A DNA stretch of 64,000 bases from Saprospira sp. CCB-QB6 (lineage in GTDB: Bacteria > Bacteroidota > Bacteroidia > Chitinophagales > Saprospiraceae). Position 1 is the stretch's first letter. Each line of letters begins with the position of its first letter. The notes under the pieces were generated by a model that saw only the letters and a program-made list of their open reading frames with translations, did no database searches and was not told the origin of the DNA. Position numbers and translations under genes: made by a program. This document shows positions 184 through 58,622 of this stretch, piece after piece. The stretch is taken from the NCBI RefSeq assembly GCF_028464065.1, contig NZ_CP116808.1, forward strand, positions 1,263,886 to 1,327,885, given 5' to 3'.

Positions 184-320
184 CGGCCCAGCGCTGCGCA
201 GGGGGGGCGCGTAGCGCCAGACCGAGGCGCTGCAAGCGCCGCAGGGCCGAGCGACTTGCGAGCCCCGAAGCATAGCGGCGGCCAAGCGAGGCGAAGCCGA
301 GCCGGCCGCGGGCCCCAAAA
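184..320 (-). repeat. GC-rich modular palindromic intergenic repeat, copy A (gamma-type variant, minus orientation: ends ...GCGGGCCCCAAAA)
   Basis: Contains GCAGGGCCGAGCGA...GAGCCCCGAAGCATAGCGGCGGCC...GGGCCCCAAAA. Near-identical in architecture to the copy at 55068-55196 and reverse-complementary to 58196-58325. Creates a spurious 64-codon N-terminal extension of ORF 139..2517. Confidence 0.7.
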
Positions 321-330
321 CCATCTAACT

Positions 331-2517
331 ATGAAAGCGCTTTACTTCCTTATTTTCCTGCTGCCTAGCTGCCTCAGCGCTCAAAATAGCAAGCTGAATG
401 TTGACCTTTTTCGCCTTTGGCAAATGGGCGGCAGCGAAAAACTAGAGCTGATGGTCCAAGGCGATCCGCAGACGATAAAAGAACTGGCCAAACAAACCGA
501 TAGTCAATATAAATATGGCCTTAATGATCTGGCCGCCCTCTCTATCCCCCTGCAAAAGCTGCCCCTTTGGTGGGAAAACCCCAAAATTAAAGGCCTGCAA
601 GCCCAGCGCCTTTCCCCTCTCTATTTTTTTGAGCAAGATAGCCTGATGCTGGCCAATAATAACGCCCTTGCCGCTCATGAAGGCTGGGGGTTGCCCCAAT
701 CTTTTGAGGGCGAGGAGGTGCTTGTCGGCATTATTGATGACGGCTACGAATGGCAGCATCCCGACTTCTGGCAGCCCGATGATAGCAGCAGCCGCTTCCT
801 GAGCATTTGGGACCAAGATTATTTTTCGCCCAACTTTTTTCTGGGCCAATATGGCTATGGCAGCTATTGGAGCAAGGCCCATATTGATTCGGGCCTGATT
901 ACTCATCCCCCAGGCGAACATGGCTCGCATGTGCTGGGCACTGCCGCTGGAAATGGCCTAGCTGCCCAAAAATATAGCGGCATTGCCCCCAAAGCCGAGC
1001 TTTTGGCCGTGGCCCTGAGCGAAGATGGACAGTTTTTGCCCCGCTTTGTGGATGCCGTCCACCATATTTTTCAAGAAGCTAAGCGATTGGGAAAACCCTG
1101 CGCCATTAACTCTAGTGTAGGGGCCTATTATGGCTCGCATGATGGTCAAGACTTGTATACGGCTATGATTGAAGCTATGCTAGAGGAGGAAAACGGCCGT
1201 GCATTGATTCAAGCAGGTGGCAATGCCCGTCAGGCTAAAATGCACTGGCAAAAGAAGCGAGAAGATAGCGCTAGTCTGGCCTTTTTGCCCCTCAATGGCC
1301 AAGCATTTCGCAGCTCGGCCTTTATTGATACTAGTGACTGGGCCCAATTGCATTGGCAATTTGAGCTAAAGGGAAGTCAGGGACAAACATTGGTCCTTAG
1401 TCGCCCTTTTTCCCCTGCCGATTTGCCGCCGCATAGCCCCCTACCCGCCCAAAGAATAGATACTATATATATAGGTCCACAAGGCCCCCTGATTTTAGAG
1501 CAATATTTGGCCGAATGGCAAGGCTGCCTAGAGTGGTATTTTCAACTGCGGGGAAACAATTTGCAAAATCAACAGCTTTTTTTGCATTGGAGCGGGAGCG
1601 GCAAGCTTGATATTTGGAGCCATGAACGCAATATGGGACTCTCTGATATTCTTCAACAGGCCAATAGCTCTCATTATGTTGCGCCCGATAACCAACAAAC
1701 CCTAGCGGCTTATTGGACCTGCTCGCCCAAGGTCATCACGGTGGCGGCCTATCAAAACCGCGATCAACTACATAATTATGCTGGCGATACCGTCTCTTTG
1801 GCCTATGCGGGCTTTCCGATCTTTGGGATTGCAGATTTTTCTAGCCTCGGCCCTAGTCGAACGGGCCTACAAAAGCCCGATTTAACGGCCCCTGGGGGGC
1901 AGGTCCTTTCGGCAGGCAGTCTGGCCGCCCTGCAAGCCGCTCGAAACAGTAATTATATATATCTGGACCAAGGCGGTTGGCATGTTTCCGCTAAAGGGAC
2001 CTCTATGGCCGCCCCTATGGTCACGGGGGCCGCTGCCCTCTATTTTCAATGCCAACCCCAGGCCGATTGGGCCGAGCTCAAAGCCGCCTTACTACAATCG
2101 GCCCGCAAAGATGCTTGGGTCTATAGCGCTGGCGCGCCGCCCAATATAGACTGGGGAGCAGGTAAACTAGATGTGCAGACGCTTTTGCAAAACTGCCTAA
2201 AGCCGGGCTGCCTAGACAGCAACGCCCTCAACTTTGTCCCCAACGCTTGGGTAGAAGATGGCTCTTGCTACTACCCTAGTTCCACAGATTACCTGAGCGA
2301 GCAAGGGCCAAAGCTCTGGCCCAATCCCTTTAGCGCCCAACTGCAAATAGAATTACCTCAGGCGGGCCAGCTTTGCTTTTATAATGTTTTGGGCCAAGAA
2401 GTGGCTCGCTATATTTTGCCTGCTGGCCCAAAAACAATTGGTACCGAAAATTGGCCCAAGGGCAGTTACTTCTGGAAATGGGAAAATGGACAAAGCGGAA
2501 AGCTCATTAAGCAGTAA
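331..2517 (+). CDS. Subtilisin-like S8 serine peptidase with T9SS C-terminal sorting domain
   Basis: Real start is Met65 of the ORF (MKALYFLIFLLPSCLSAQ signal peptide); the upstream codons come from the repeat. Catalytic motifs IIDDGYEW (Asp), HGSHVLGTAAG (His) and GTSMAAPMVTGAAALY (Ser). C-terminus KLWPNPFSAQLQIELPQAGQLCFYNVLGQEVARYIL resembles Por/T9SS tails. Confidence 0.8.
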   Translation: MKALYFLIFLLPSCLSAQNSKLNVDLFRLWQMGGSEKLELMVQGDPQTIKELAKQTDSQYKYGLNDLAALSIPLQKLPLWWENPKIKGLQAQRLSPLYFFEQDSLMLANNNALAAHEGWGLPQSFEGEEVLVGIIDDGYEWQHPDFWQPDDSSSRFLSIWDQDYFSPNFFLGQYGYGSYWSKAHIDSGLITHPPGEHGSHVLGTAAGNGLAAQKYSGIAPKAELLAVALSEDGQFLPRFVDAVHHIFQEAKRLGKPCAINSSVGAYYGSHDGQDLYTAMIEAMLEEENGRALIQAGGNARQAKMHWQKKREDSASLAFLPLNGQAFRSSAFIDTSDWAQLHWQFELKGSQGQTLVLSRPFSPADLPPHSPLPAQRIDTIYIGPQGPLILEQYLAEWQGCLEWYFQLRGNNLQNQQLFLHWSGSGKLDIWSHERNMGLSDILQQANSSHYVAPDNQQTLAAYWTCSPKVITVAAYQNRDQLHNYAGDTVSLAYAGFPIFGIADFSSLGPSRTGLQKPDLTAPGGQVLSAGSLAALQAARNSNYIYLDQGGWHVSAKGTSMAAPMVTGAAALYFQCQPQADWAELKAALLQSARKDAWVYSAGAPPNIDWGAGKLDVQTLLQNCLKPGCLDSNALNFVPNAWVEDGSCYYPSSTDYLSEQGPKLWPNPFSAQLQIELPQAGQLCFYNVLGQEVARYILPAGPKTIGTENWPKGSYFWKWENGQSGKLIKQ

Positions 2518-2589
2518 ACAACGCTCAAAAAGGGGCAAAACTTAGGTTTCCCCCCTTTTTTTAGGCCCTAAAATCAATAGACTTCTAAA

Positions 2590-2670
2590 TTTCGCTGCTA
2601 AGCGAGTCTAGCTAATTTGTAGTAGGGTCAGTCCAGAAAAAAAAGATAGGGTCTTAGACATACTCCCCAA
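2590..2670 (+). repeat. Second repeat family (about 80 bp), copy 1: TTCGCTGCTAAGCGAG.CTAGCT.ATTTGTAGTAGGGTC.GTCCAGAAAAAAAAGATAGGG.CTTAGACA
   Basis: About 90% identical to 15965-16045. Both copies lie 3' of a large T9SS-tailed gene and are followed by AT-rich TTGCAA-containing motifs. Confidence 0.55.
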
Positions 2671-2671
2671 G

Positions 2672-2989
2672 CTAATTGTAATTTGCAAATTAAGCTGGGC
2701 GTCACGCCCACGTTAATTGTAATCTGCAAATTAAGCTGGGCGCCACGCCCACGTTAATTGTAATCTGCAAATTAGGCTGGGCGCCACGCCCACGTTAATT
2801 GTAATCTGCAAATTAGGCTGGGCGCCACGCCCACGTTAATTGTAATTTGCAAATTAGGCTGGGCGCCACGCCCACGTTAATTGTAATCTGCAAATTAAGC
2901 TGGGCGTCACGCCCAGGTTAATTGTAATCTGCAAAACAGGCGGGGGATTTTCCCAACACCAATTGTAATCCGCAGATTGGCCCAAAACC
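2672..2989. repeat. 41-bp tandem array, about 6 clean plus 2 degenerate units: TTAATTGTAATCTGCAAATTAAGCTGGGCG(C/T)CACGCCCACG
   Basis: Units start at 2672, 2713, 2754, 2795, 2836, 2877 and 2918. Each unit has a GGGCG-CCA-CGCCC hairpin (or CTGGGCGTCACGCCCAG) plus an AT-rich semi-palindrome TTAATTG..CAAATTAA. There are no unique spacers, so this is not CRISPR. Confidence 0.85.
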
Positions 2990-3010
2990 TTTGTTTAGCC
3001 GCATAAAAAA

Positions 3011-3059: not shown

Positions 3060-4136
3060 TTAGGCGGGGGCCAAGCGTTTTTCGATATATTTAGAATTCA
3101 TGATGCGGAGGATCGCCATATAATCGAGTTTAAACTCGATCAGATCGCCAACGCCTAATTCCTTTTCATTGCTTCCTAGGTCAATTACGACCATATCCGA
3201 GGAGGCGCCCAGCATTTTGTGTTTGGGGTCGGCCAATTGCAGATGGGCTTCATCTACATCTAGCAGGCCAAGGTCGATAATTGCGCGGACCGCTGTTTTT
3301 TGTCGAAGTTCTTCTTTAAAAGTCACGGCTTCGCCCTTGAGGTTAAGGCCCATATTGCCATCGGGCACCAGGGGTTTTTCGTTCAGCTCAATGATTTGGG
3401 CATAAAGCTTAAAGACATCTTGGTGCATCCGTTCATAGGTCCGATTATTATAGACATCGGTCCCTAGATAAAGGGTCTCTCCTACTCTAAAGTGATTGAT
3501 TCCCGCGGGCAATAGGTTCTGAAAAATGAGGGGAATCGTCACAGAGGAGCCCCCAGACACCAGCGGAATTTCTCGGTTAAATTTGGCCTCTACCAGTTGT
3601 TCATAGAGGCAAAGTTGGATCAATTTATCTTGGCTGGGCAAAACGCCATACATACAAGTGAGATTGGTTCCAATGCCCACCACTTGAATATTGGGCAATT
3701 TGAAGACCTGCTCATAAAAGTCCATAAACTCCTCTCGCATCACGCCTTCTCGCAGTTCGCCCATTTCGATCATAATAATCACTTTATGCAATTTATTTTG
3801 GCGGGCGGCCTCTTCGGACAGCAGGCGGATGCTTTCGATCTCCGTATTAAAAGAGATATCGGCATATTGGACAATTTCGGGAATAATTTCTTGGGGGGGC
3901 GGCTTAATATAGATCGTCTCCACCTCTTCCGAGATAGATTTGATCATTTTGAGGTTGCTCAGGCGGGAGTCGCACAGTTGTTTGGCGCCCAATTTAATGA
4001 GTTCCTCTAGGTAGAGGCGGTGGCCACAAAGCATTTTGGAAACCACGGCCCATTGGATATTTTTTTCTTGAAAAAGCTCGTCTAAGCGTTGGTAGTTTTC
4101 GGCTAGTTTTTGACTATCTAAGGTGATAAATGCCAT
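3060..4136 (-). CDS. Alanine-racemase-fold PLP enzyme (predicted amino-acid racemase, COG3457-like)
   Basis: The N-terminus WAVVSKMLCGH resembles the alanine racemase PLP-lysine motif AVVKANAYGHG. 358 aa, and the overall layout fits the N-terminal barrel plus C-terminal domain of the Ala racemase fold. Family assignment is from memory of that fold only. Confidence 0.55.
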   Translation of the reverse strand: MAFITLDSQKLAENYQRLDELFQEKNIQWAVVSKMLCGHRLYLEELIKLGAKQLCDSRLSNLKMIKSISEEVETIYIKPPPQEIIPEIVQYADISFNTEIESIRLLSEEAARQNKLHKVIIMIEMGELREGVMREEFMDFYEQVFKLPNIQVVGIGTNLTCMYGVLPSQDKLIQLCLYEQLVEAKFNREIPLVSGGSSVTIPLIFQNLLPAGINHFRVGETLYLGTDVYNNRTYERMHQDVFKLYAQIIELNEKPLVPDGNMGLNLKGEAVTFKEELRQKTAVRAIIDLGLLDVDEAHLQLADPKHKMLGASSDMVVIDLGSNEKELGVGDLIEFKLDYMAILRIMNSKYIEKRLAPA

Positions 4137-4182: not shown

Positions 4183-4309
4183 TTTTGGGGCTGCCCCTGC
4201 GGCCTGCGGCCTTGGGTCGGGCTGTTTCGCAGCTCGCTATTCGCTCGGCCCTTCGGCGCTTGCAGCGCCTCGGTCTGGCCTAACGGCCACTGCTGTCCAT
4301 CCCTCAGCC
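4183..4309 (+). repeat. GC-rich modular repeat copy B (alpha-type: TTTTGGGGCTGCCCC...CGCAGCTCGCTATTCGCTCGGCCC...GGTCTGGCC...GGCCACTGCTGTCCATCCCTCAGCC)
   Basis: Read directly. The internal hairpin is GGCGCTTGCAGCGCC. Confidence 0.8.
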
Positions 4310-4505: not shown

Positions 4506-4949
4506 TTATTTTTTCAGTCGCATTTCGAGATAAGGATTAGTAAATCCTAATTTTTCATAAAGCTGCTTAGCGGGATTATCTTTTTCTACATGCAGGGCGA
4601 TATCTCCGGGGGTTTGCTCAATTGCTGCCTGCATTAGTTGTTTTCCTAGGCCTTTTCCTCTAAATTGCGCATCTACGGCAATATAGACCAGGATATTTTC
4701 GGGGATATAGCCAGTCATGCCTGTGCGGTTAAGCACAGTAGTGCCGGCCAATTGCCCTTGATGATAGATGCTAAAAATCTGGCCCCCAGCGGCTTGTTCT
4801 GTCTGGCCGAGGGAATAATCCATAGCGGCTAGAATTTGCTCTTTGGGGTCTCCGTATTGTTCTAGATGTTTAAATAAAAAGTTGGCCATTTCTTCTTTCT
4901 CCGCTTCAGTTGGCTGATGTTCAGGAGAGTAAGATTTGATCGTTGCCAT
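4506..4949 (-). CDS. GNAT family N-acetyltransferase
   Basis: 147 aa. Acetyl-CoA binding motif QFRGKGLGKQLMQAAIE (Q/RxxGxG/A). Confidence 0.8.
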   Translation of the reverse strand: MATIKSYSPEHQPTEAEKEEMANFLFKHLEQYGDPKEQILAAMDYSLGQTEQAAGGQIFSIYHQGQLAGTTVLNRTGMTGYIPENILVYIAVDAQFRGKGLGKQLMQAAIEQTPGDIALHVEKDNPAKQLYEKLGFTNPYLEMRLKK

Positions 4950-5198: not shown

Positions 5199-5364
5199 CA
5201 GGGCCGAAGGCCCGCAAAGGAGCGTAGCGACGCGGCTGAGGGATGGACAGCAGTGGCCGCAGGCCAGACCAAGGCGGCAAAGCCGCCGCAGGGCCGAGCG
5301 ATCAGCGAGCTGCGAAACAGCCCGACCCAAGGCCGCAGGCCGCAGGGGCAGCCCCAACAAAAAA
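5199..5364 (-). repeat. GC-rich modular repeat copy C (alpha-type, minus orientation)
   Basis: AAAGGAGCGTAGCGACGCGGCTGAGGGATGGACAGCAGTGGCC...GGCCAGACC...GCAGGGCCGAGCGATCAGCGAGCTGCGAAACAGCCCGACCC...GGGGCAGCCCCAACAAAA. Provides the spurious 43-codon N-terminal extension of ORF 5243..6469. Confidence 0.8.
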
Positions 5365-10557: not shown

Positions 10558-10579
10558 TTTTTCCTGAGATTTTTTTCTT

Positions 10580-10699
10580 TTTTGGGGCTGCCCCGCCCTG
10601 CGGGCGGGTCGGGCTGTTGCGCAGCTCGCTATTCGCTCGGCCCTGCGCCAGCAAGCTGGCTGGGTCTGGCGCTGCGCGCCACTGCTCCATCCCTCAGCC
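10580..10699 (+). repeat. GC-rich modular repeat copy D (alpha-type), followed at 10704-10724 by hairpin CTGTGGGTT-TTC-AACCCACAG
   Basis: TTTTGGGGCTGCCCCGCCCTGCGGGCGGGTCGGGCTGTTGCGCAGCTCGCTATTCGCTCGGCCCTGCGCCAGCAAGCTGGCTGGGTCTGGC...CCACTGCTCCATCCCTCAGCC. Confidence 0.8.
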
Positions 10700-10829
10700 G
10701 ATGCTGTGGGTTTTCAACCCACAGCGATAAGGTTATGGCTGCGCCATATTTATTATTGAGGGATAAACCCTCAAGAAAAAGGACCAAAATACCGCCCCCT
10801 GAACAAGTTCCTCAATCAAATCAATCAAC

Positions 10830-11906: not shown

Positions 11907-12039
11907 AGGAGCGAAGCGACTGGCCTAGCGATGTGCAGCAGTGGCGCGCAGCGCCAGACCCAGCCAGCTTGCTGGCGCAGGGCCGAGCGAATAGCGAGCT
12001 GCGCAACGTAGCGCCTGCCGTAGGCAGGAGGCCCCAAAA
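11907..12039 (-). repeat. GC-rich modular repeat copy E (beta-type, minus orientation)
   Basis: GGAGCGAAGCGACTGGCCTAGCGATGTGCAGCAGTGGCGCGCAGCGCCAGACCCAGCCAGCTTGCTGGCGCAGGGCCGAGCGAATAGCGAGCTGCGCAACGTAGCGCCTGCCGTAGGCAGGAGGCCCCAAAAC. Confidence 0.8.
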
Positions 12040-15462: not shown

Positions 15463-15514
15463 TTTTGATCCCTTTATTTTATCCCTCTAGTAGTTAATTA
15501 CTAGGGGGATATTT

Positions 15515-15676
15515 TTTTGGGGCCTCCTGCCTACGGCAGGCGCTACGTTCCGCAGCTCGCAGGTCTGCTCGGCCCTTCGCCGCCTGCGGCGGCTCGGTCT
15601 GGCCCTGCGGGCCACTGCTGCACATCGCTAGGCCGTTTGGCCTGCGGCCATGGGCTGCAGGTTTCAACCTACAGGC
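15515..15676 (+). repeat. GC-rich modular repeat copy F (beta-type) plus trailing hairpins GGCCTGCGGCC and CTGCAGGTTTCAACCTACAG
   Basis: TTTTGGGGCCTCCTGCCTACGGCAGGCGCTACGTTCCGCAGCTCGCAGGTCTGCTCGGCCCTTCGCCGCCTGCGGCGGCTCGGTCTGGCCCTGCGGGCCACTGCTGCACATCGCTAGGCC. Confidence 0.8.
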
Positions 15677-16157: not shown

Positions 16158-16279
16158 CGGCCTAGCGATGCGGCGGGGTGGCGCAAAGCGCCAGACCCAG
16201 GCGGCAAAGCCGCCGCAGGGCCGAGCAGACCTGCGAGCCCCAAAGCGTAGCGCCTGCCGTAGGCAGGAGGCCCCAAAAC
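16158..16279 (-). repeat. GC-rich modular repeat copy G (beta-type, minus orientation)
   Basis: GGCCTAGCGATGCGGCGGGGTGGCGCAAAGCGCCAGACCCAGGCGGCAAAGCCGCCGCAGGGCCGAGCAGACCTGCGAGCCCCAAAGCGTAGCGCCTGCCGTAGGCAGGAGGCCCCAAAAC. Confidence 0.8.
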
Positions 16280-23776: not shown

Positions 23777-23915
23777 TTTTTTGGGGCTGCCCCTCCTTTC
23801 AGTCGGGTCGGGCTGTTTCGCAGCTCGCTCTTCGCTCGGCCCTGCGCCGCCTCTGGCGGCTGGGTCTGGCCCTTCGGGCCACTGCTGTCCATCCCTCAGC
23901 CAGTCGCTTCGCTCC
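23777..23915 (+). repeat. GC-rich modular repeat copy H (alpha-type)
   Basis: TTTTTTGGGGCTGCCCCTCCTTTCAGTCGGGTCGGGCTGTTTCGCAGCTCGCTCTTCGCTCGGCCCTGCGCCGCCTCTGGCGGCTGGGTCTGGCCCTTCGGGCCACTGCTGTCCATCCCTCAGCCAGTCGCTTCGCTCC. Confidence 0.8.
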
Positions 23916-26439: not shown

Positions 26440-26587
26440 GTCCAAGCGGGCCAAAGGCCCGCCGGCCTAGCGATGTGCAGCAGTGCGGCGCAGCCGCAGA
26501 CCAAGGCCGTCAGGCCGCAGGGCCGAGCAGACTTGCGAGCTGCGAAACGTAGCGCCGACGAGCGTAGCGAGGCGGAGGCCCCAAAAC
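26440..26587 (-). repeat. GC-rich modular repeat copy I (beta-type, minus orientation)
   Basis: GGCCTAGCGATGTGCAGCAGTGCGGCGCAGCCGCAGACCAAGGCCGTCAGGCCGCAGGGCCGAGCAGACTTGCGAGCTGCGAAACGTAGCGCC...GGCGGAGGCCCCAAAAC. Confidence 0.8.
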
Positions 26588-28584: not shown

Positions 28585-28709
28585 TTTTGGGGCCTCCGCC
28601 TCGCTTCGCTCCTCGGCGCTACGTTCCGCAGCTCGCTGTTCGCTCGGCCCTGCGCTGCCAAAGGCAGCTTGGTCTGGCCCTTCGGGCCACTGCTGCACAT
28701 CGCTAGGCC
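28585..28709 (+). repeat. GC-rich modular repeat copy J (beta-type); hairpin CTGTAGGTTAAAACCTACAG lies just upstream at 28470-28489
   Basis: TTTTGGGGCCTCCGCCTCGCTTCGCTCCTCGGCGCTACGTTCCGCAGCTCGCTGTTCGCTCGGCCCTGCGCTGCCAAAGGCAGCTTGGTCTGGCCCTTCGGGCCACTGCTGCACATCGCTAGGCC. Confidence 0.8.
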
Positions 28710-32287: not shown

Positions 32288-32324
32288 TTGATTTTTCTTT
32301 AGACGATCTATTTTAGAGTGGACA

Positions 32325-32484
32325 GGCGGCGAAGCCGCCAAAAGGAGCGCAGCGACGCGGCTGAGGGATGGACAGCAGTGGCCCGCAGGGCCAGACCAAG
32401 CTGCCTTTGGCAGCGCAGGGCCGAGCGAACAGCGAGCTGCGGAACAGCCCGACCCGCCCGAAGGGCGGGGCAGCCCCTAAAAAG
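32325..32484 (-). repeat. GC-rich modular repeat copy K (alpha-type, minus orientation)
   Basis: GGCGGCGAAGCCGCCAAAAGGAGCGCAGCGACGCGGCTGAGGGATGGACAGCAGTGGCCCGCAGGGCCAGACCAAGCTGCCTTTGGCAGCGCAGGGCCGAGCGAACAGCGAGCTGCGGAACAGCCCGACCCGCCCGAAGGGCGGGGCAGCCCCTAAAAAG. Confidence 0.8.
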
Positions 32485-35730: not shown

Positions 35731-35878
35731 TTTTGGGGCCTCCGCAGCAAAGCTGCGGCGCTACGCTTTGGGGCTCGCAAGTCTGCTCGGCCCTTCGCTT
35801 TTTCGCTACGCTCAAAAGCTCGGTCTGGCCTGCGGCCACCCCGCCGCATCGCTAGGCCAAGGCGGCTGCGCCGCCTCC
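35731..35878 (+). repeat. GC-rich modular repeat copy L (beta-type)
   Basis: TTTTGGGGCCTCCGCAGCAAAGCTGCGGCGCTACGCTTTGGGGCTCGCAAGTCTGCTCGGCCC...GGTCTGGCCTGCGGCCACCCCGCCGCATCGCTAGGCCAAGGCGGCTGCGCCGCCTCC. Confidence 0.8.
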
Positions 35879-36925: not shown

Positions 36926-37071
36926 GGCTGGGCGGGGAGCGCCAATGGCCTAGCGATGTGCAAGGGTGGCCGTCAGGCCAGACCGAGGCGCAAAGCGCCG
37001 AAGGGCCGAGCAGAACTGCGAGCCCTGCAACGTAGCGCCGCAAGGCGAAGCCGCAGCGGAGGCCCCAAAAA
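36926..37071 (-). repeat. GC-rich modular repeat copy M (beta-type, minus orientation)
   Basis: GGCCTAGCGATGTGCAAGGGTGGCCGTCAGGCCAGACCGAGGCGCAAAGCGCCGAAGGGCCGAGCAGAACTGCGAGCCCTGCAACGTAGCGCCGCAAGGCGAAGCCGCAGCGGAGGCCCCAAAAA. Confidence 0.8.
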
Positions 37072-41143: not shown

Positions 41144-41277
41144 TTTTTTGGGGCCTCAGCTGCGGCTTCGCCTTGCTGCGCTACGCTTTGGGGCTCGCAG
41201 GTCTGCTCGGCCCTTCAGGCTACACTTCGTTTCGCCTTCGGTCTGGCCTAACGGCCACCCCGCCGCATCGCTAGGCC
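41144..41277 (+). repeat. GC-rich modular repeat copy N (beta-type), left arm of a tight inverted pair
   Basis: TTTTTTGGGGCCTCAGCTGCGGCTTCGCCTTGCTGCGCTACGCTTTGGGGCTCGCAGGTCTGCTCGGCCC...GGTCTGGCCTAACGGCCACCCCGCCGCATCGCTAGGCC. Confidence 0.8.
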
Positions 41278-41414
41278 GCTCCACGGTCTTTTTGCTCTTG
41301 GCATTCTTCTTCGGCCCTCCATTCATTCCGTTCAATTCATGAGGGTTTTACCCCTCATTCATATATCATTGCGAAGCAATACCACTCTAGCTGTAGGTTT
41401 CAACCTACAGTAAA
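41278..41414. repeat. Conserved core between inverted pair N/O (TTCATGAGGGTTTTACCCCTCATTCATATAT...GCAATACCACTCTAGCTGTAGGTTTCAACCTACAG)
   Basis: About 80% identical to the core 58326-58479 between pair T/U. Contains hairpins ATGAGGG-TTTTA-CCCCTCAT and CTGTAGGTT-TC-AACCTACAG. Confidence 0.7.
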
Positions 41415-41553
41415 AAGGGCCGAAGGCCCGCGGCTGAGGGGCTGTAGCCGTGCCGCCGCAGGCGGCAGACCAAAGCGCTGCAAGCGCCGCAGGGCCGAGC
41501 GAGCAGCGAGCGGCGCAAGGGCACGGCCGCCGCAGGCGGCAGGCCCCAAAAAA
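41415..41553 (-). repeat. GC-rich modular repeat copy O (alpha-prime type, minus orientation), right arm of the pair
   Basis: GGGCCGAAGGCCCGCGGCTGAGGGGCTGTAGCCGTGCCGCCGCAGGCGGCAGACCAAAGCGCTGCAAGCGCCGCAGGGCCGAGCGAGCAGCGAGCGGCGCAAGGGCACGGCCGCCGCAGGCGGCAGGCCCCAAAAAAAG. Confidence 0.8.
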
Positions 41554-45504: not shown

Positions 45505-45561
45505 GTTTTAGTCTAGCCTACTTTGTACTATGGCTGCATCTTCTGAAATAGGAGGATGCAG

Positions 45562-45699
45562 TTTTTTTTGGGGCCTGCCGCCTGCGGCGGCCGTGCCCTT
45601 GCGCCGCTCGCTGCTCGCTCGGCCCTGCGGCGCTTGCAGCGCCTTGGTCTGCCGCCTGCGGCGGCACGGCTACAGGCCACTAGGCCAGTCGCTTCGCTC
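45562..45699 (+). repeat. GC-rich modular repeat copy P, left arm of a tight inverted pair
   Basis: TTTTTTTTGGGGCCTGCCGCCTGCGGCGGCCGTGCCCTTGCGCCGCTCGCTGCTCGCTCGGCCCTGCGGCGCTTGCAGCGCCTTGGTCTGCCGCCTGCGGCGGCACGGCTACAGGCCACTAGGCCAGTCGCTTCGCTCC. Confidence 0.8.
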
Positions 45700-45813: not shown

Positions 45814-45960
45814 GGGCCGCTAGGCCCTAAATGGCCTAGCGATGTGTAGGGGTGGCCCGCAGGGCCAGACCGAGCCAGCTTGCTGCCGAAGGGCCGAGCG
45901 AAGAGCGAGCCCCGGAACGTAGCGCCCTGAGCCCTTGAGGGCGAGGGGAGGCCCCAAAAA
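45814..45960 (-). repeat. GC-rich modular repeat copy Q (beta-type, minus orientation), right arm of the pair; overlaps the 3' end of CDS 45820..48000
   Basis: GGCCTAGCGATGTGTAGGGGTGGCCCGCAGGGCCAGACCGAGCCAGCTTGCTGCCGAAGGGCCGAGCGAAGAGCGAGCCCCGGAACGTAGCGCCCTGAGCCCTTGAGGGCGAGGGGAGGCCCCAAAAAC. Confidence 0.8.
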
Positions 45961-49750: not shown

Positions 49751-49898
49751 TTTTTTGGGCCTCCCCTCGCCCTCAAGGGCTCAGGGCGCTACGTTCCGGG
49801 GCTCGCTCTTCGCTCGGCCCTTCGCCAGCAAGCTGGCTCGGTCTGGCCCTGCGGGCCACCCCTACACATCGCTAGGCCATGATGGCCTTCGGCCATCC
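49751..49898 (+). repeat. GC-rich modular repeat copy R (beta-type) plus trailing hairpin ATGATGGCCTTCGGCCATCC
   Basis: TTTTTTTGGGCCTCCCCTCGCCCTCAAGGGCTCAGGGCGCTACGTTCCGGGGCTCGCTCTTCGCTCGGCCCTTCGCCAGCAAGCTGGCTCGGTCTGGCCCTGCGGGCCACCCCTACACATCGCTAGGCC. Confidence 0.8.
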
Positions 49899-51539: not shown

Positions 51540-52199
51540 TTAGGAGGCTATGGCTGTTTGTATGGTAGCATCTATATCTTCTACATACTCTTCAAATACG
51601 GCACTTATTTGTATAACATCTGGAAATGTTAAATCCGAGGCCTGATCATTGTAATGCAGCACTTTATTCCTCTTTAAAACAATACTTTGGATCAAGTCTT
51701 TATGCTGAATATATGAAGAAACCTTATCCAAATCTATCCCCATATAAGAAAATGCTACCTTCGTCCTATCTGGGTTTCCCGAAATGAAATCATCAAAACC
51801 ATTTTCATTTTCTTGTAGCAAGAATATCGCTTCTGCATTTTCCCTTTTTTCTAAATCCTTCGTTGCTTTATTTACAGCTGCTTTAGAAAACTTATTTTCT
51901 TTATCTCTTGATGCAATTACGATAACATTTTTAGGGAGATTTGCATTAGCCACCCTTTGCTGATACTCTTTATATATCTCTGATAAAACGTCTTTCAAAT
52001 AGCTTTCCAAACAAACACAAAGTTGTACTAATGCCGACTTCGTCAGAAAGTTAGCATGTTCTATGACAAACTGCTCAGCTCCTGAGCCACTACTCTGGCC
52101 AAGTTGTACCTTATGGCTGTCATTTACAAAGGTCCTTAAATCATTTAAATTGTCTATATATCTTTTGTAGGATGTTGTTTTTAGGTTACTCATAGCCAT
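51540..52199 (-). CDS. HEPN-like protein (Rx4H motif; MAE_28990/Swt1-like by context), second gene of a DUF262-HEPN module
   Basis: 219 aa, predicted all-helical. C-terminal region IQSIVLKRNKVLHYNDQ gives R-x4-H, the HEPN RNase signature. Overlaps the upstream DUF262 gene by 14 bp. About 35% GC. Confidence 0.45.
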   Translation of the reverse strand: MAMSNLKTTSYKRYIDNLNDLRTFVNDSHKVQLGQSSGSGAEQFVIEHANFLTKSALVQLCVCLESYLKDVLSEIYKEYQQRVANANLPKNVIVIASRDKENKFSKAAVNKATKDLEKRENAEAIFLLQENENGFDDFISGNPDRTKVAFSYMGIDLDKVSSYIQHKDLIQSIVLKRNKVLHYNDQASDLTFPDVIQISAVFEEYVEDIDATIQTAIAS

Positions 52200-53217
52200 C
52201 TATTTCTGAGAGTTTTGAAATCCATAGCTCACGACGTTTTAGGATAGAGCTTTTTTTCTGTGTTCCCCCTGATAGTTTTTGTTGGAACTTAGGCATTTGA
52301 CAAAGCTGATTAAATTTTTCTTGAATTTCCTCCTTATGCGCTAAAGCCCAATCGCGTCTCCCTGTCAAAGACCACATGATTAGGTCATAATGTGCATTAC
52401 TATGTCTAGGCTTCTCTTTGGTTACATCCATAAAAGGTTGTTTAAATACCTGTACACAAGTATCTAAAGTCTCGGTAAAGAGTTTCTTTAACTCTTTAAT
52501 TTTGGTTGCTGAAAGATTCTGATTTTCAGCCATACACTGATCCAACCACTTAGCATGGTTACTATCATAAGTCTTTAAATCCTTTTGTAGGGCGAAGTAC
52601 CGTAAAACTAGCTCTTCATCCCTTCGATCATCCTTATCCTTGGCTAACTGAAAAGCAGGAAGACCCTGATCGGCTAATTCTTTCAGTAGAGAGTCAAAAC
52701 TTCCAGGGTAAATTGCATGTCGAATCTCTTGATCACTCAGCTTAACAGCTCCTTGGTTCAATCGAGCAAAAATCTCATTCACTAGCCCTTTGGGGTTGTT
52801 CTTTCTCAACACCACACAACGAATAGTTGTATTTTCTAAATCTGCCTGATAAGTGCCTAACTCTGAGAACTTCTTATTATTCAATTCTGGATATACAGTC
52901 AATCCTTCTAAAGCAAATTCGTCCGCAAAAAATCGTCGTATAGTAGTAATTCTTTGTACACCGTCAATCACTTCATGGCTTCCATCCTCTCGCTCTGCAA
53001 AATAACAAGCAGGTAAAGGAATACGCATTAAGCAAGATTCGATGAATTTAGAGCTCCGCCCTTCACCATCTTTATCCCATTTGTATTTTCGCTGAAAGTC
53101 GGGATCTAAAATTAGTTTTCCATCTCGGACCCTATCATTTAAAGTCTCAAAAGGATAATCAATAGGATAAAGGTTCAAGACCTTCATATTCTCTTCCGTG
53201 TTTGTATTACTGGCCAT
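52186..53217 (-). CDS. DUF262 (GmrSD N-terminal / ParB-Srx-like NTP-binding) domain protein
   Basis: N-terminal LYPIDYPFETL...LDPDFQRKYKWDKD (QR.YxW box) and EVIDGVQRITTI (DGQQR box), both hallmark DUF262 motifs. No DUF1524/HNH C-terminal domain is recognisable. 343 aa. AT-rich codon usage. Confidence 0.7.
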   Translation of the reverse strand: MASNTNTEENMKVLNLYPIDYPFETLNDRVRDGKLILDPDFQRKYKWDKDGEGRSSKFIESCLMRIPLPACYFAEREDGSHEVIDGVQRITTIRRFFADEFALEGLTVYPELNNKKFSELGTYQADLENTTIRCVVLRKNNPKGLVNEIFARLNQGAVKLSDQEIRHAIYPGSFDSLLKELADQGLPAFQLAKDKDDRRDEELVLRYFALQKDLKTYDSNHAKWLDQCMAENQNLSATKIKELKKLFTETLDTCVQVFKQPFMDVTKEKPRHSNAHYDLIMWSLTGRRDWALAHKEEIQEKFNQLCQMPKFQQKLSGGTQKKSSILKRRELWISKLSEIDGYE

Positions 53218-54407: not shown

Positions 54408-54428
54408 TTTTTTTAGCTTTTCTATCTA

Positions 54429-54731
54429 ATCCACGGAGTCAATCTGAGATGTCCGTAGACCTCCGTGGCCGCCACGGAGCCAATCTGAGATGTCCGTAGA
54501 CCTCCGTGGCCACCACGGAGCTAATCCGAGATGTCCGTAGACCTCCGTGGCCGCCACGGAGCCAATCTGAGATGTCCGTAGACCTCCGTGGCCACCACGG
54601 AGCCAATCTGAGATGTCCGTAGACCTCCGTGGCCACCACGGAGCTAATCCGAGATGTCCGTAGACCTCCGTGGCCGCCACGGAGCTAATCCGAGATGTCC
54701 GTAGACCTCCGTGGCCACCACGGAGCCAATC
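54429..54731. repeat. 41-bp tandem array of about 7.4 units: ATC(T/C)GAGATGTCCGTAGACCTCCGTGGCC(G/A)CCACGGAGC(C/T)A
   Basis: Each unit has a CTCCGTGG-CC(G/A)-CCACGGAG hairpin (8-bp stem) and an ATCTGAGAT palindrome. Units differ only at 3 positions and there are no spacers. Starts about 22 bp upstream of the start codon of 53265..54407. Confidence 0.85.
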
Positions 54732-54974
54732 CATCCGAATGGTCGCAGTCCGTGGCGGATTCTAAGCCCCTCTTTTGATTTTCCTATGGTCCCCCTAATC
54801 AAAAAATAAAAGGTGCTTAGGCCCTAAAATAAGCGATCCTTTATTTAGAAGGACAAAAAAAGGCTCCAAACTAAGGTTTGGAGCCTTTCTGGGCCATCAA
54901 ATTCTTGAGCATAATAAGCTTGAGCGAGGAATTAGGCCAGCCAATAATAGCGAAAGCGGCAAGAAGGCCCGCAG

Positions 54975-55196
54975 CCCACAACAAGCCCTTTAGGCTGCAG
55001 TTCGACGGCCAGAGGGAGTAACCGATTTGCAGCAGGCGGCGCAGCCGCCTTGGCCGAAGGCCAAACGGCCCAGCGCTGCGGAGGGGTGGCCGTAAGGCCA
55101 GACCAAAGCCGCCGCAGGCGGCTGCAGGGCCGAACAGACCTGTGAGCCCCGCAGCATAGCGGCGGCCAGCTTTGCTGGCCGCGGGCCCCAAAAAAT
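54975..55196 (-). repeat. GC-rich modular repeat copy S (gamma-type, minus orientation), preceded by a GCAGTTCGACG..AGGGAGTAACC module
   Basis: GGCCCAGCGCTGCGGAGGGGTGGCCGTAAGGCCAGACCAAAGCCGCCGCAGGCGGCTGCAGGGCCGAACAGACCTGTGAGCCCCGCAGCATAGCGGCGGCCAGCTTTGCTGGCCGCGGGCCCCAAAAAA. Confidence 0.8.
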
Positions 55197-58110: not shown

Positions 58111-58134
58111 GTCAAATTGAAACGGGCAAAAAAA

Positions 58135-58167
58135 ACCGCCAGCTCGACAAAAGCTGGCGTTTTTTTG
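58135..58167 (+). terminator. Rho-independent terminator CGCCAGCT-CGACAAA-AGCTGGCG plus T7
   Basis: Read directly, 25 bp downstream of the carbonic anhydrase stop. Confidence 0.65.
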
Positions 58168-58195
58168 TAGGGGCCAAGAGCTTCCCGATGATGAT

Positions 58196-58325
58196 ATTTT
58201 TTTGGGGCCCGCGGCCAGCAAAGCTGGCCGCCGCTATGCTGCGGGGCTCACAGGTCTGTTCGGCCCTGCAGCCGCCTGCGGCGGCTTTGGTCTGGCCTAC
58301 GGCCCCCCCTCCGCAGCGCTGGGCC
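58196..58325 (+). repeat. GC-rich modular repeat copy T (gamma-type), left arm of a tight inverted pair
   Basis: TTTTTTTGGGGCCCGCGGCCAGCAAAGCTGGCCGCCGCTATGCTGCGGGGCTCACAGGTCTGTTCGGCCCTGCAGCCGCCTGCGGCGGCTTTGGTCTGGCCTACGGCCCCCCCTCCGCAGCGCTGGGCC. Reverse complement of copies A and S. Confidence 0.8.
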
Positions 58326-58479
58326 GCTCCACTTTTTTTGTTGCTTCAAATCTTTAGGCTTCGGCCTTTTGGTCCTCCCTTTTTAGTTCACTTCATGAGG
58401 GGGTTAGCCCTCATTCATATATTATTCTGCAGCAATGCCATTCCTTGCTGTAGGTTTTAACCTACAAGCACAGATAGCA
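58326..58479. repeat. Conserved core between inverted pair T/U (TTCATGAGGGGGTTAGCCCTCATTCATATAT...GCAATGCCATTCCTTGCTGTAGGTTTTAACCTACAAG)
   Basis: Homologous to 41278-41414. Confidence 0.7.
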
Positions 58480-58622
58480 GGCGGCAAAGCCGCCGCAGGC
58501 TGAGGGGCTGTAGCAGGGCCGCCGAAGGCGGCAGACCTAGCGGGCATAGCCCGCGCAGGGCCGAGCAAACAGCGAGCTGCGCAATGGCCCGACCCGACCG
58601 CAGGAAGGGGCAGCCCCAAAAC
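58480..58622 (-). repeat. GC-rich modular repeat copy U (alpha-prime type, minus orientation), right arm of the pair
   Basis: GGCGGCAAAGCCGCCGCAGGCTGAGGGGCTGTAGCAGGGCCGCCGAAGGCGGCAGACCTAGCGGGCATAGCCCGCGCAGGGCCGAGCAAACAGCGAGCTGCGCAATGGCCCGACCCGACCGCAGGAAGGGGCAGCCCCAAAACC. Confidence 0.8.

What the first reader, a model, noticed from the sequence alone, without database searches (positions are those of the whole stretch)
184..58622. A 21-copy, ~130-150-bp GC-rich modular repeat sits at almost every transcription-unit boundary and alternates orientation perfectly
Twenty-one copies fall at 184, 4183, 5199, 10580, 11907, 15515, 16158, 23777, 26440, 28585, 32325, 35731, 36926, 41144, 41415, 45562, 45814, 49751, 55068, 58196 and 58480. 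Each shares the conserved blocks TTTTGGGGCC(T)CC, CGCAGCTCGC...TTCGCTCGGCCC, GGTCTGGCC and GGCCAC(TGCTG)..CATC(G/C)CT(A/C)(A/G)GCC, with 2-3 variable inserts in between. Orientation, defined by which strand reads TTTTGGGG...GCTCGGCCC, runs -,+,-,+,... through all 21 copies with no exception. If orientation were random the chance of this is about 1e-6. Orientation does not track the strand of the flanking genes; both orientations occur between pairs of minus-strand genes. So the alternation looks like a property of how the elements arrive or are retained, for example as inverted pairs bounding segments, or by purging of direct-repeat pairs. The element is also not a simple MITE. The variable inserts differ in sequence between copies but each is self-complementary, for example GCTGCC-AAA-GGCAGC, GGCGCT-GC-AGCGCC, CGCCGCC-TGC-GGCGGC and CCTGCC-TAC-GGCAGG. 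That compensatory pattern implies selection on a folded DNA or RNA structure. At least three subfamilies (alpha, beta, gamma) coexist. When copies are paired as (-,+), the two bracketing copies share a subfamily in 6 of 10 pairs; with the alternative (+,-) pairing only 2 of 10 match.
Basis: seen in the sequence. Interest (0 to 1): 0.9.

Follow-up and report, generated by a model that had tools for sequence, protein, structure and literature searches.

The report
Alternating hairpin repeats bracketing gene blocks
The marine bacterium Saprospira carries a ~125-base folded DNA repeat about once every 3 kb, mostly arranged as head-to-head pairs around blocks of ordinary genes; this is an unusually orderly layout for a bacterial intergenic repeat, and its cause is still open.

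Summary
The window (Saprospira grandis-like DNA) contains exactly 21 copies of a polar 115-135-bp GC-rich repeat, in perfect -,+ alternation. Alternation is a strong tendency, not a rule: in 121 neighbour pairs from S. grandis DSM 2844 and a Saprospira-rich metagenome, 86% alternate.

The element folds into a conserved multi-hairpin structure. In 150 independent copies 96% of cells pair, and changes are almost all Watson-Crick to Watson-Crick, with almost no G.T wobble. Loops are GNA triloops on one strand only, which points to folded single-stranded DNA rather than RNA.

Copies lie between housekeeping genes. No transposase was found. Sites and orientations are conserved between lineages about 85% identical. 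Whole element bodies have nevertheless been overwritten by the neighbouring inverted copy 3-4 kb away.

All 40 close pairs are tail-to-tail. Heads face each other only across at least 1 kb of genes, so the alternation amounts to both ends of a gene block being occupied, heads inward.

The closest known kind is REP/BIME (REPIN) or IS200-type hairpin repeats, but the defining REP features are not met. Why block ends are co-occupied is unresolved. Composite-transposon and RNA-gene readings are disfavoured.

The parts
185..320 (-). E1, gamma-type copy. Head (TTTT-GGGGCC) at 320, 10 bp upstream of the ATG at 331.
4183..4309 (+). E2, beta-type copy. Head lies 47 bp from the start of the minus-strand gene 3060-4136.
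5234..5359 (-). E3, beta-type copy. Shares a 54-nt identical tract with E2.
10579..10699 (+). E4, beta-type ends. Its central part is identical over 71 nt to E5.
11922..12039 (-). E5, alpha-type ends. Head lies 40 bp upstream of the helicase gene 12079-15462.
15514..15634 (+). E6, alpha copy. Head directly follows a terminator-like hairpin of gene 12079-15462. Left member of a tail-to-tail pair with E7 (508-bp spacer).
16159..16278 (-). E7, alpha copy downstream of the 2451-aa gene 16375-23730.
23778..23901 (+). E8, beta copy. Head lies 48 bp from the start of gene 16375-23730.
26464..26586 (-). E9, alpha copy. Its first hairpin holds a TCGCTACGCTC mini-hairpin module.
28585..28709 (+). E10, mosaic copy: the 5' part resembles E9 and the central/3' part is identical over 59 nt to E11.
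32359..32482 (-). E11, beta copy. It sits 9 bp after the stop of gene 32491-35640 and 13 bp before the start of gene 30605-32341.
35731..35858 (+). E12, alpha copy with an enlarged second hairpin.
36947..37071 (-). E13, alpha copy downstream of the rpsA (S1) terminator.
41145..41277 (+). E14, left member of a tail-to-tail doublet (149-bp spacer). Only 43% alignment identity to E15.
41432..41552 (-). E15, delta-type copy. Its T-run continues the T tract of the terminator of gene 41613-44846. 94-96% identical to E16, which lies 4 kb away.
45565..45686 (+). E16, delta-type copy. Its T-run is the T tract of a 13-bp-stem terminator-like hairpin at 45532-45563.
45833..45960 (-). E17, alpha copy, 98% identical to E18. 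The orthologous site in L121/L122 holds a beta-type body, so E17 was overwritten.
49751..49878 (+). E18, alpha copy in the divergent HtrA | 99-aa-gene region, which is ancestral and lacks an element in the outgroups.
55067..55194 (-). E19, gamma copy, 98% identical to E20. The orthologue in L121 is alpha-type, so E19 was overwritten.
58199..58325 (+). E20, gamma copy; its orthologue in L221 is 92% identical. Synteny with L221 ends exactly at its head.
58498..58621 (-). E21, beta-like copy. Right member of a tail-to-tail doublet (162-bp spacer), 8 bp after the stop of gene 58629-59558.

Best explanation
WHAT IT IS (well supported). This is a Saprospira-lineage family of polar, 115-135-bp, GC-rich multi-hairpin palindromic DNA repeats. 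It occurs about once per 3 kb, which suggests on the order of a thousand copies per genome. It belongs to the general kind of REP/BIME, REPIN and IS200-type hairpin repeats. Each copy reads 5'-T-run-GGGGCC ('head') ... GGCC-3' ('tail'). A terminal helix closes a long imperfect helix and three hairpins. The conserved parts include an invariant G.T mismatch and subfamily-specific C.T mismatches. The variable hairpins are swappable modules. The fold looks like one read as single-stranded DNA on the strand ending ...GGCCCCAAAA, which carries C-GNA-G triloops; the most likely reader is an HUH/Y1-type (RAYT-like) enzyme (inferred). The insertions are old and fixed in place. They now evolve by exact, end-to-end overwriting from the neighbouring inverted copy (shown).

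HOW THE ALTERNATION ARISES (partly shown, partly inferred). Copies are placed with the head towards a gene end. Two copies in one intergenic region are therefore always tail-to-tail, and heads face each other only across genes. Alternation is then the same thing as both ends of a gene block being occupied or both empty. My preferred cause of that co-occupancy is the local, orientation-inverting copy or replacement process between the two ends of a block that is seen directly at E18->E17 and E20->E19. Loss of direct-repeat neighbours may add to it. Close tail-to-tail doublets are either two decorated blocks abutting or later additions; the latter would explain why single-doublet junctions alternate only about half the time.
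For: Copies and orientation.

Organism and independent replication: S. grandis DSM 2844 blocks alternate in 12/15 pairs. The metagenome gives 84/99. All data outside the window give 104/121, p=2e-16. Single-single pairs alternate in 52/61, single-doublet pairs in 8/16.

Geometry: all 40 pairs closer than 700 bp are tail-to-tail. Head-to-head gaps are at least 1073 bp, median 3615 bp, against 532 bp for tail-to-tail gaps, p=1e-15. Heads lie closer to the flanking gene than tails, 47.5 against 103 bp, p=2e-4. A T-run precedes the head (86-92% T at positions -4 to -1), and there is no T-run or duplication after the tail.

Structure: 33 consensus pairs, 21 with compensatory change. In 150 independent copies 96% of cells pair against 75% in shuffles, and the covariation score is 0.50 against 0.14 shuffled and at most 0.10 slid.

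DNA-level signature: 4544 Watson-Crick cells, 17 G.T, 10 A.C. TNC triloops number 283 against 4 GNA on the head strand. The opposite strand is more stable with DNA parameters in 198/222 copies, with no difference under RNA parameters.

Old and static: every comparable orthologous site I examined, in lineages about 85% identical, keeps its copy and orientation. Overwriting is bounded by the element ends. Neighbours are more alike than non-neighbours in the window, 73% against 64%, permutation p=1e-4.

Context: housekeeping genes and no transposase in the window. Bacteroidetes are reported to hold a Y1 transposase subclass (2.6) flanked by atypical secondary structures that recur in the genome (PMC6006769).
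Against: No Y1/RAYT gene was found in the window or in about 710 kb of Saprospira-like DNA.

IS200/IS605-type elements are expected to share one orientation per replication arm, which is the opposite of what is seen here.

The head-towards-gene rule is statistical: it holds in 58 of 87 singles. Only 13 of 165 heads directly follow a terminator-like hairpin.

Geometry alone predicts only about 64% alternation at the occupancy I estimate for transcription-unit ends (21/48, my ORF-based count), so an extra coupling is needed (p=6e-8). Its cause is not shown.

Highly similar partners are not significantly more frequent across head-to-head blocks (7/46) than in other neighbour classes.

All birth events predate the lineages available, so creation of a copy at the partner end was never observed; only replacement was.

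The invariant G.T pair is a wobble on the head strand but an A.C mismatch on the strand favoured by the loops.
Confidence: 0.45

Rival explanations
1. Orientation-dependent survival. Copies arrive in random orientation. Neighbours in direct orientation are then lost, or never fix, because recombination, replication slippage or transposase action between them deletes the genes in between. Inverted neighbours only invert or convert.
For: Neighbouring copies do exchange sequence. Synteny with L221 ends exactly at an element end. No direct pair is closer than 1 kb, while 40 inverted pairs are. Alternation declines somewhat with gap, from 91% at 0.7-1.5 kb to 73% above 4.5 kb. Starting from the roughly 64% geometric baseline, only a moderate purge would be needed (inference).
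Against: In an alternating chain every second copy is still a direct repeat, and typical pairs share only 10-18 identical bases in a row, too few for efficient homologous recombination. The gaps of same-orientation and alternating pairs do not differ (median 3059 against 3256 bp, p=0.3), and alternation is still 85% at 3.5-4.5 kb. Two of 16 direct neighbour pairs are at least 90% identical. Replacement events appear to be about as rare as point substitutions, so the deletion load would be tiny (inference). Removing most direct pairs by real deletions would imply implausible gene loss.
Confidence: 0.2
2. Selected, paired boundary elements. A protein binds the polar elements and pairs heads across a gene block, acting as a loop anchor, a barrier to supercoil spread, or a gyrase site. 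Selection would then keep both ends occupied in convergent orientation.
For: Sites and orientations are conserved between lineages about 85% identical. Orthologous elements E20 and E21 are 90-92% identical, at least as conserved as the flanking coding DNA. Invariant blocks and mismatches persist in about 170 copies. Head-bounded blocks have a fairly narrow size range, median 3.6 kb and never under 1 kb. REP/BIMEs are reported to bind several proteins and to have a suggested role in chromosome organisation (PMC2817692); their binding of gyrase and IHF is from my own knowledge.
Against: There is no protein partner and no functional data. Some copies have decayed: the E18 orthologues in L121/L122 carry insertions. 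About 14% of neighbour pairs break the rule. Single-doublet junctions alternate only about half the time. Close relatives (HtrA 64-67% identical) lack the family entirely, so it is not a general requirement.
Confidence: 0.12
3. RNA-level element. The repeat would act in transcripts as a structured UTR or intercistronic module that stabilises or punctuates mRNA. Inverted copies at the two ends of a transcription unit would give complementary 5' and 3' ends that pair.
For: The fold is very stable and conserved. Heads face gene 3' ends in 54 of 88 singles. Several copies lie 9-50 bp from start or stop codons, so they must be transcribed as part of neighbouring mRNAs (inference). REPs are hypothesised to play such roles (PMC3733652).
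Against: Rfam gives no match. Wobble pairs are almost absent, 17 G.T in about 4,700 cells. RNA energy parameters show no strand preference. Orientation relative to transcription is mixed: 6 sense and 4 antisense among tandem-gene singles in the window. The overwritten pair E19/E20 flanks divergent genes that share no transcript. The core has no hairpin followed by a U tract in either direction.
Confidence: 0.1
4. The copies are terminal inverted repeats of composite transposons or gene cassettes that inserted as units, so each unit contributes one - and one + copy.
For: Three (-,+) pairs are 94-98% identical and flank 3-4 kb. A chain of such units would alternate automatically (inference).
Against: Outgroups without elements keep the gene adjacency across E18. 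The contents are core genes such as S1, L20, ABC-F, TsaB and DapF. Tail-bounded segments share no homologous gene. The identity of E17/E18 and E19/E20 is secondary, because orthologous sites carry other subtypes. The two halves of close doublets are less alike than background, 0.645 against 0.693.
Confidence: 0.03

Closest known systems
REP / BIME elements and REPINs with their RAYT (TnpA_REP, Y1 HUH) transposases (E. coli, Pseudomonas, Stenotrophomonas, Xanthomonas)
   Same: High-copy, extragenic, GC-rich palindromic repeats with compensatory changes. Neighbouring units lie in inverted or alternating orientation, and doublets are common. Architecture is mosaic. They are vertically inherited and long-lived, and are thought to be read as folded single-stranded DNA (PMC2817692, PMC3733652, PMC3337134).
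   Different: REPs are 20-40-bp single hairpins with a GT[AG]G or CGTC foot. Their alternation is confined to clusters with spacers of tens of bp. Here the unit is 115-135 bp with five helices and has no GTAG/CGTC foot (the head is T-run + GGGGCC). The alternation runs across genes over kilobases, and close pairs are exclusively tail-to-tail. No RAYT has been found so far.
Bacteroidetes TnpA_Y1 subclass 2.6 (RAYT group 5) 'REPtrons' with atypical flanking secondary structures (Quentin et al. 2018, PMC6006769)
   Same: Same phylum. The reported flanking structures lack GTAG, are atypical, and have copies elsewhere in the genome. This is the most plausible cognate enzyme class.
   Different: The paper does not mention Saprospira. 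Those structures are described as having weaker secondary structure, whereas these are very strong. No link was tested here.
IS200/IS605-derived miniature elements (PATEs)
   Same: No target-site duplication. A fixed short sequence lies on one side only (the T-run). Structured ends and a strand-asymmetric hairpin design.
   Different: From my own knowledge, IS200/IS605 insertions follow the lagging-strand template and so share one orientation per replication arm. Here orientation alternates. No TnpA or TnpB was found.
Integron attC sites / Vibrio cholerae repeats (about 120-130 bp)
   Same: Similar length. One strand is thought to fold, with conserved ends, conserved mismatches, a variable self-complementary middle, and positions between genes (my own knowledge).
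   Different: attC arrays are all in one orientation, flank small promoterless cassettes, have R/L boxes (GTTRRRY) and sit next to an integrase gene. None of this applies here.
Other long intergenic repeats: ERIC/IRU (127 bp), the modular pneumococcal BOX, Neisseria Correia/NIME, Rhizobium RIME
   Same: Length of about 100-150 bp, modular or mosaic build, intergenic position, co-transcription with flanking genes (my own knowledge).
   Different: As far as I know and could find, none is reported to alternate in orientation across genes or to bracket gene blocks head-inward.

Membership tests
REP/BIME-RAYT (REPtron) | Unit is a single 20-40-bp imperfect palindrome | tested here: not met
   The core is 114-132 nt, with a terminal helix, a long imperfect helix and three hairpins.
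REP/BIME-RAYT (REPtron) | Conserved GT[AG]G (or CGTC) tetranucleotide at the foot of the hairpin | tested here: not met
   The invariant 5' end is a T-run plus GGGGC. GTAG occurs only inside alpha-type copies, on the opposite strand (CGTAGCGCC).
REP/BIME-RAYT (REPtron) | High copy number, extragenic | tested here: met
   21 copies in 64 kb, all between ORFs except E17, into which an ORF now reads. About 230 further copies occur in about 0.7 Mb of related DNA.
REP/BIME-RAYT (REPtron) | Neighbouring units in inverted or alternating orientation (doublets, BIMEs) | tested here: met
   40/40 pairs closer than 700 bp are inverted. Overall 104/121 alternate outside the window. Unlike BIMEs, the pattern spans genes.
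REP/BIME-RAYT (REPtron) | Cognate rayt gene flanked by two inverted units | tested here: inconclusive
   No Y1-like ORF in the window or in a 710-kb sample, using phmmer with remembered IS200/YafM sequences and HUH/Y motif patterns. The sample covers less than 20% of a genome.
IS200/IS605-type miniature element (PATE) | No target duplication; insertion next to a fixed short sequence on one side | tested here: met
   T at positions -4 to -1 in 86-92% of copies. There is no T-run after the tail. Whether the T-run is target or part of the element is not known.
IS200/IS605-type miniature element (PATE) | One active strand with structured ends | tested here: inconclusive
   The loops are strongly strand-asymmetric, 283 TNC against 4 GNA, and the opposite strand is more stable as DNA in 198/222 copies. 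But the invariant G.T lies on the other strand. No biochemistry is available.
IS200/IS605-type miniature element (PATE) | Uniform orientation relative to replication direction | tested here: not met
   Orientation alternates within a region of constant GC skew.
Classical (DDE-type) MITE | Terminal inverted repeats of 10 bp or more, plus a target-site duplication | tested here: not met
   Terminal pairing is 5 consensus pairs, GGCC(N)/(N)GGCC, and there is no flanking duplication.
Integron attC array | All sites in one orientation, R/L core boxes, adjacent intI, small cassettes | tested here: not met
   Orientation alternates. The flanking genes are large housekeeping genes, and no integrase is present.
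Described structured RNA family (Rfam) | Match to a curated covariance model | tested here: not met
   0 matches at gathering thresholds over the window. Only chance-level hits (E of 1.6 or more) on one copy.
Intrinsic terminator | GC-rich hairpin followed directly by a U tract | tested here: not met
   The T-run precedes the structure on the head strand, and an A-run follows it on the other. Only accessory hairpins beyond some tails look like terminators.

The most novel reading that the evidence does not exclude
The elements would be polar, paired boundary sites that divide the Saprospira chromosome into head-bounded gene blocks of a few kilobases, acting as loop anchors or supercoil barriers. 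Their orientation logic would resemble convergent CTCF sites. The pairs would be kept matched by a dedicated replacement activity acting on hairpins in single-stranded DNA.
Probability: 0.08. Interest if true: 0.9.

Novelty: new variant of a known kind. Interest (0 to 1): 0.62.

Why it matters
Bacterial intergenic repeats are usually treated as scattered selfish or incidental DNA. Here a repeat family shows kilobase-scale order. About 86% of neighbours are inverted. Heads are always separated by genes. Close pairs are always tail-to-tail. Partners are overwritten end-to-end across 3-4 kb.

If the order comes from the insertion or replacement mechanism, it reveals a new mode of local, orientation-inverting copying by a hairpin-reading enzyme. 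It would also offer a natural system for studying exact replacement of an element without flanking homology. If the order comes from selection, it would be a rare case of orientation-dependent boundary elements in a bacterial chromosome.

Either way, the family is a dense set of natural markers for recombination, rearrangement breakpoints and strain typing in Saprospiraceae. It is also a caution for gene callers, because ORFs run into or across copies.

Tried and rejected
1. Missed copies that would break the alternation. TTCGCTCGGCCC-like hits at 8884, 12236, 46004 and 63807 are isolated 12-mers, not copies.

2. Exact-protein look-ups to fetch the window's own genome failed for two ORFs.

3. 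My first genome contigs pattern was too loose. 110 of 120 loci were chance single hits in GC-rich genomes, and only 7 S. grandis blocks plus one Saprospiraceae MAG were useful.

4. An autonomous IS with 130-bp inverted ends. Tail-bounded segments of about 1.1 kb are not homologous to each other. The 355-aa ORF between E4 and E5 has no family match and no HUH motif.

5. A RAYT/IS200 search in 710 kb found nothing.

6. Rfam found nothing.

7. The idea that the T-run is a terminator U tract holds for only 13/165 heads, although it is clear at E6, E15 and E16.

8. A short-range hazard (a single-stranded window of about 2 kb at the fork) as the sole cause of alternation. This was rejected because alternation is still 85% at 3.5-4.5 kb.

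9. Duplicative inversion by replicative transposition as the source of pairs. It is not supported at the HtrA block, whose orientation matches the outgroups. Any single addition inside an alternating chain must create one break, and inversions between copies cannot remove breaks (my own parity argument).

10. A toy simulation. If orientation is set by which gene end is used, patchy near-saturation alone gives 80-90% alternation. But it also predicts head-to-head blocks of about 1 kb and about 40% doublets, unlike the data.

11. Gene length as the property that attracts heads: not significant.

Full report
OBSERVATION

The repeat is real, and the 21 coordinates are right. nhmmer with a profile of the copies finds 21 hits in the window (E 1.6e-17 to 4e-33) and nothing else below E=3.9. 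A short gapped pattern finds the same 21, against 0 expected. A covariance model run without filters again finds exactly 21, all at 65.8 bits or more, with the next hit at 12.9 bits. Orientation is -,+,-,+ without exception. Extra 12-mer matches that might have hidden missed copies are not copies. With random orientation the chance of perfect alternation is about 1e-6 (inference). The core from GGGGCC to GGCC is 114-132 nt.

ORGANISM AND SPREAD

A scan of one genome per species placed the family in Saprospira grandis DSM 2844 (seven 8-kb blocks) and in one Saprospiraceae MAG. All other hits were single chance matches in GC-rich genomes. A metagenome scan returned 120 contigs. 98 of them carry the element (211 profile hits in 681 kb), and most come from one sample, Ga0193958. 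A few copies sit on contigs of 34-39% G+C, which are presumably other taxa. Relatives whose HtrA is 64-67% identical have no copies in 13-21 kb around the orthologous locus. I found no paper describing the family, and Rfam has no match.

ANATOMY

Each copy is polar. A T-run of 3-9 bases precedes GGGGCC, which I call the head (86-92% T at positions -4 to -1). The other end is GGCC, the tail, with no T-run and no duplication after it.

RNAalifold on the 21 copies gives 33 pairs. These form a 5-bp terminal helix joining head and tail, a first variable hairpin, a long imperfect helix in three segments, a GGCC/GGTC helix enclosing a second variable hairpin, and a third hairpin. 21 of the pairs show compensatory changes.

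I then counted pairs on 150 further copies from other genomes, aligned to the model. 96.0% of cells pair, against 75.3% in shuffles. There are 998 double changes against 330. The covariation score is 0.50, against 0.14 for shuffles and at most 0.10 for slid partners. This alignment was fitted to the model, which favours the structure somewhat, but the margin is large.

The hairpins are swappable modules. One recurrent module is TCGCTNCGCTC, with 9 hits against 0.12 expected, always on the element's own strand.

DNA OR RNA?

Leaving aside one invariant G.T pair in the GGCC/GGTC helix, the paired cells are 4544 Watson-Crick, 17 G.T, 10 A.C and 102 other. The 'other' cells are mostly subfamily-specific C.T mismatches. 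Covariation this clean and this strand-symmetric is what palindromic DNA shows. Structured RNAs normally tolerate many wobble pairs (established knowledge).

The loops, in contrast, are strongly strand-specific. Of 597 triloops, 283 are TNC on the head strand and only 4 are GNA, mostly closed by C-G. The opposite strand therefore carries C-GNA-G triloops, the motif of the very stable d(GCGNAGC) DNA mini-hairpins (my own knowledge). With DNA energy parameters that strand is the more stable one in 198 of 222 copies (p=6e-29). With RNA parameters there is no difference, 110 of 222.

I read this as a fold recognised as single-stranded DNA, with conserved mismatches as likely protein contacts. That reading is inference. 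The invariant G.T lies on the other strand and is unexplained.

CONTEXT

The flanking genes are ordinary chromosomal genes: subtilase, an alanine-racemase-like gene, L20, a helicase, a 2451-aa protein, S1, ABC-F, TsaB-like, HtrA, DapF, GldC and OmpA-family genes. There is no transposase or recombinase. By my ORF-based count, 17 of about 28 boundaries between transcription units carry one or two copies, so 'almost every boundary' is too strong.

Orientation ignores gene strand: within the minus-strand run at 30.6-49.6 kb the copies alternate eight times. Several copies lie 8-50 bp from start or stop codons on both sides, so neighbouring mRNAs must read through them in both directions (inference). 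That argues against an efficient terminator.

ALTERNATION BEYOND THE WINDOW

In DSM 2844, 12 of 15 neighbour pairs alternate. In the metagenome contigs, 84 of 99 do. All data outside the window give 104 of 121, or 86% (p=2e-16). The rule is therefore strong but not strict, and this window is an extreme case.

Three regularities give the pattern a structure.

(i) All 40 pairs closer than 700 bp are tail-to-tail. Heads never face each other across less than 1073 bp.

(ii) Tail-to-tail gaps are short (median 532 bp) and head-to-head gaps are long (median 3615 bp; p=1e-15). The difference remains when the close pairs are dropped: 1375 against 3615 bp, p=2e-7.

(iii) In 88 singles, the head lies nearer its flanking gene than the tail does (47.5 against 103 bp, p=2e-4). 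It faces a 3' end in 54 cases and a 5' end in 34.

Together these say that heads point at genes. Left and right gene ends alternate along a chromosome. Alternation is therefore equivalent to both ends of a gene block being occupied, or neither.

If ends were filled independently with probability p, the alternating fraction would be 1/(2-p) (my derivation). In the window, 21 of about 48 unit ends are occupied, which gives about 0.64. The data exceed that baseline: 0.64^20 = 1.3e-4 for the window and p=6e-8 elsewhere. Geometry therefore explains the tail-to-tail rule, the asymmetry in gap sizes and part of the alternation. A further coupling between the two ends of a block is required.

Pairs of singles alternate in 52 of 61 cases, but junctions between a single and a close doublet alternate in only 8 of 16. 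That is what one expects if one member of many doublets is a later addition to an already alternating chain, because any single addition inside such a chain must create one break (parity argument).

Alternation falls only slowly with gap: 91%, 87%, 78%, 85% and 73% from 0.7 kb to above 4.5 kb.

EVOLUTION

Contigs about 82-89% identical to parts of the window are L121-L124 and L221. One contig about 85% identical to a DSM 2844 block is L176 against L016. All of them keep every comparable element I examined at the same site and in the same orientation. The insertions are therefore old and static.

The bodies are not static. The flanks of E17 align with L121/L122 right up to the element ends, but the body in the window is alpha-type and 98% identical to E18, which lies 3.9 kb away and inverted. 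The orthologues are beta-type, and the E18 orthologues keep the E18-type 5' half. Likewise E19 is gamma-type and 98% identical to E20, while its L121 orthologue is alpha-type and the L221 orthologue of E20 is gamma, 92% identical.

So E18 overwrote E17, and E20 overwrote E19. Both events crossed a head-bounded block, and the replaced tract ends within a base or two of GGGGCC and GGCC. Only 4-6 shared bases lie at those ends. This looks more like site-specific or template-switch replacement than ordinary homologous gene conversion (inference).

Partial exchanges explain the mosaics: E4/E5 share 71 identical bases, E10/E11 share 59 and E2/E3 share 54. In the window, nearest neighbours are more alike than other pairs (73% against 64%, p=1e-4), and lag 2 and beyond are at background. 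In the larger set the effect is milder: 15% of head-to-head partners exceed 85% identity against 2.6% of random pairs. Close doublets are less alike than background, 0.645 against 0.693, as expected if long near-perfect palindromes are unstable (inference).

Synteny between the window and L221 ends exactly at the head of E20.

WHAT IS EXCLUDED

Composite transposons or cassettes are excluded. Outgroups without the element keep HtrA next to the 99-aa gene, DapF and GldC, so E18 entered an existing intergenic region. The contents are core genes, and tail-bounded segments share no gene.

An RNA gene is unlikely, given Rfam, the lack of wobble pairs, the energy comparison and the mixed orientation relative to transcription.

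Purging of direct neighbours cannot be ruled out, but it is weakly supported. Alternate copies in the chain are still direct repeats. Typical pairs share only 10-18 identical bases in a row. Same-orientation and alternating gaps do not differ (p=0.3). Two of 16 direct pairs are at least 90% identical.

MOST LIKELY MECHANISM

I commit to the following, with confidence stated for each part.

(a) At about 0.85: this is a REP/BIME-like, DNA-level hairpin repeat family that spread in an ancestor of these Saprospira lineages and is now fixed in place.

(b) At about 0.6: it is, or was, handled as folded single-stranded DNA by a hairpin-reading nuclease, most plausibly a Y1 HUH enzyme. Bacteroidetes are reported to have a Y1 subclass (2.6) flanked by atypical structures that recur in the genome (PMC6006769). 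My own search for such a gene in 710 kb found none, but it was weak.

(c) At about 0.35-0.4: the excess alternation comes from a local process that links the two ends of a gene block in inverted orientation. That process is visible today only as end-to-end replacement. Orientation-dependent loss may contribute.

A selected role as paired boundary elements is the most interesting alternative (about 0.1).

COMPARISON AND NOVELTY

The family works like REP/BIME/REPIN systems: high copy number, palindromic covariation, inverted neighbours, mosaic build and long vertical persistence. It fails two defining REP features, unit size and the GTAG/CGTC foot. It also fails the uniform orientation expected of IS200-type elements, and it is neither a classical MITE nor an attC array.

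I could not find in the literature the kilobase-scale alternation across genes, the strict tail-to-tail rule for close pairs, the head-bounded blocks, or the exact overwriting between partners. I rate it a new variant of a known kind, with interest 0.62. The order is surprising and testable, but the element class is familiar and the cause is unresolved.

Noticed in passing
window 54431-54731: A tandem array of a 41-bp unit, 7.3 copies with 95% matches (consensus CCACGGAGCCAATCTGAGATGTCCGTAGACCTCCGTGGCCA, which has inverted ends). It lies on the tail side of E19. The 102-aa ORF 54426-54734 is probably an artefact of this array. The related contig L121 has fewer copies.
   Followed up: partly
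window 45820-45960 (minus strand): The stop codon of the OmpA/PD40-family gene (TAA in L121) reads TTG in the window. The ORF therefore runs 49 extra codons through E17, giving 726 aa against 677 aa.
   Followed up: yes
window 15658-15671, 28473-28486, 41394-41407, 58451-58464; also 10715-10740 and loci L064, L105: A second small hairpin repeat, CTGYAGGTTNNAACCTRCAG-like, recurs in spacers next to element tails. The core motif gives 4 exact hits against 0.04 expected.
   Followed up: partly
window 41283-41430 and 58337-58497; L010 3442-3576: The spacers of different tail-to-tail doublets share a module of about 110 bp (ACGGTCTTTTTGCTCTTGGCATTCTTCTTCGGCC...TTCATGAGGG...CCCTCATTCATATAT). Parts of the doublet spacers are therefore themselves a repeat family.
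   Followed up: no
window 5220-5230, 11909-11919, 23904-23914, 32345-32355, 45689-45699 (just beyond tails); 26560, 28601, 35803 (inside hairpins): The module TCGCTNCGCTC gives 9 hits against 0.12 expected. For the eight hits in or next to an element it lies on the element's own strand. Its complement contains GCGNAGC, the classic stable DNA mini-hairpin. It occurs both as a tail appendix (GTCGCTTCGCTCCTTT followed by a GC hairpin) and inside variable hairpins.
   Followed up: partly
L221 5999-6000 versus window 58197: Synteny between the window and a metagenome contig about 85% identical to it ends exactly at the head of the E20 orthologue. L221 continues with a different 4.5-kb head-bounded block, whereas L121 agrees with the window up to its own end at window 58070. 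This points to a rearrangement breakpoint at an element end.
   Followed up: partly
L182 (1402-1573, 4604-4754) and L235 (1664, 4550-4686): Weaker-scoring copies, whose 5' part matches the profile poorly, occur on contigs of 34-37% G+C, presumably other taxa. On both contigs the two copies share one orientation, and the L182 pair is 93% identical.
   Followed up: no
window 51540-53217 (minus strand): A HEPN_RiboL-PSP gene sits next to a gene whose L121 orthologue carries GmrSD_N. This is a likely defence pair, inside the tail-bounded segment that also holds dapF and gldC.
   Followed up: no
L121 7931-8119 and L122 1-130: The orthologues of E18 in two related contigs carry extra sequence and a degraded GGTCTG region, while the window copy is intact. 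Individual copies can therefore decay.
   Followed up: partly
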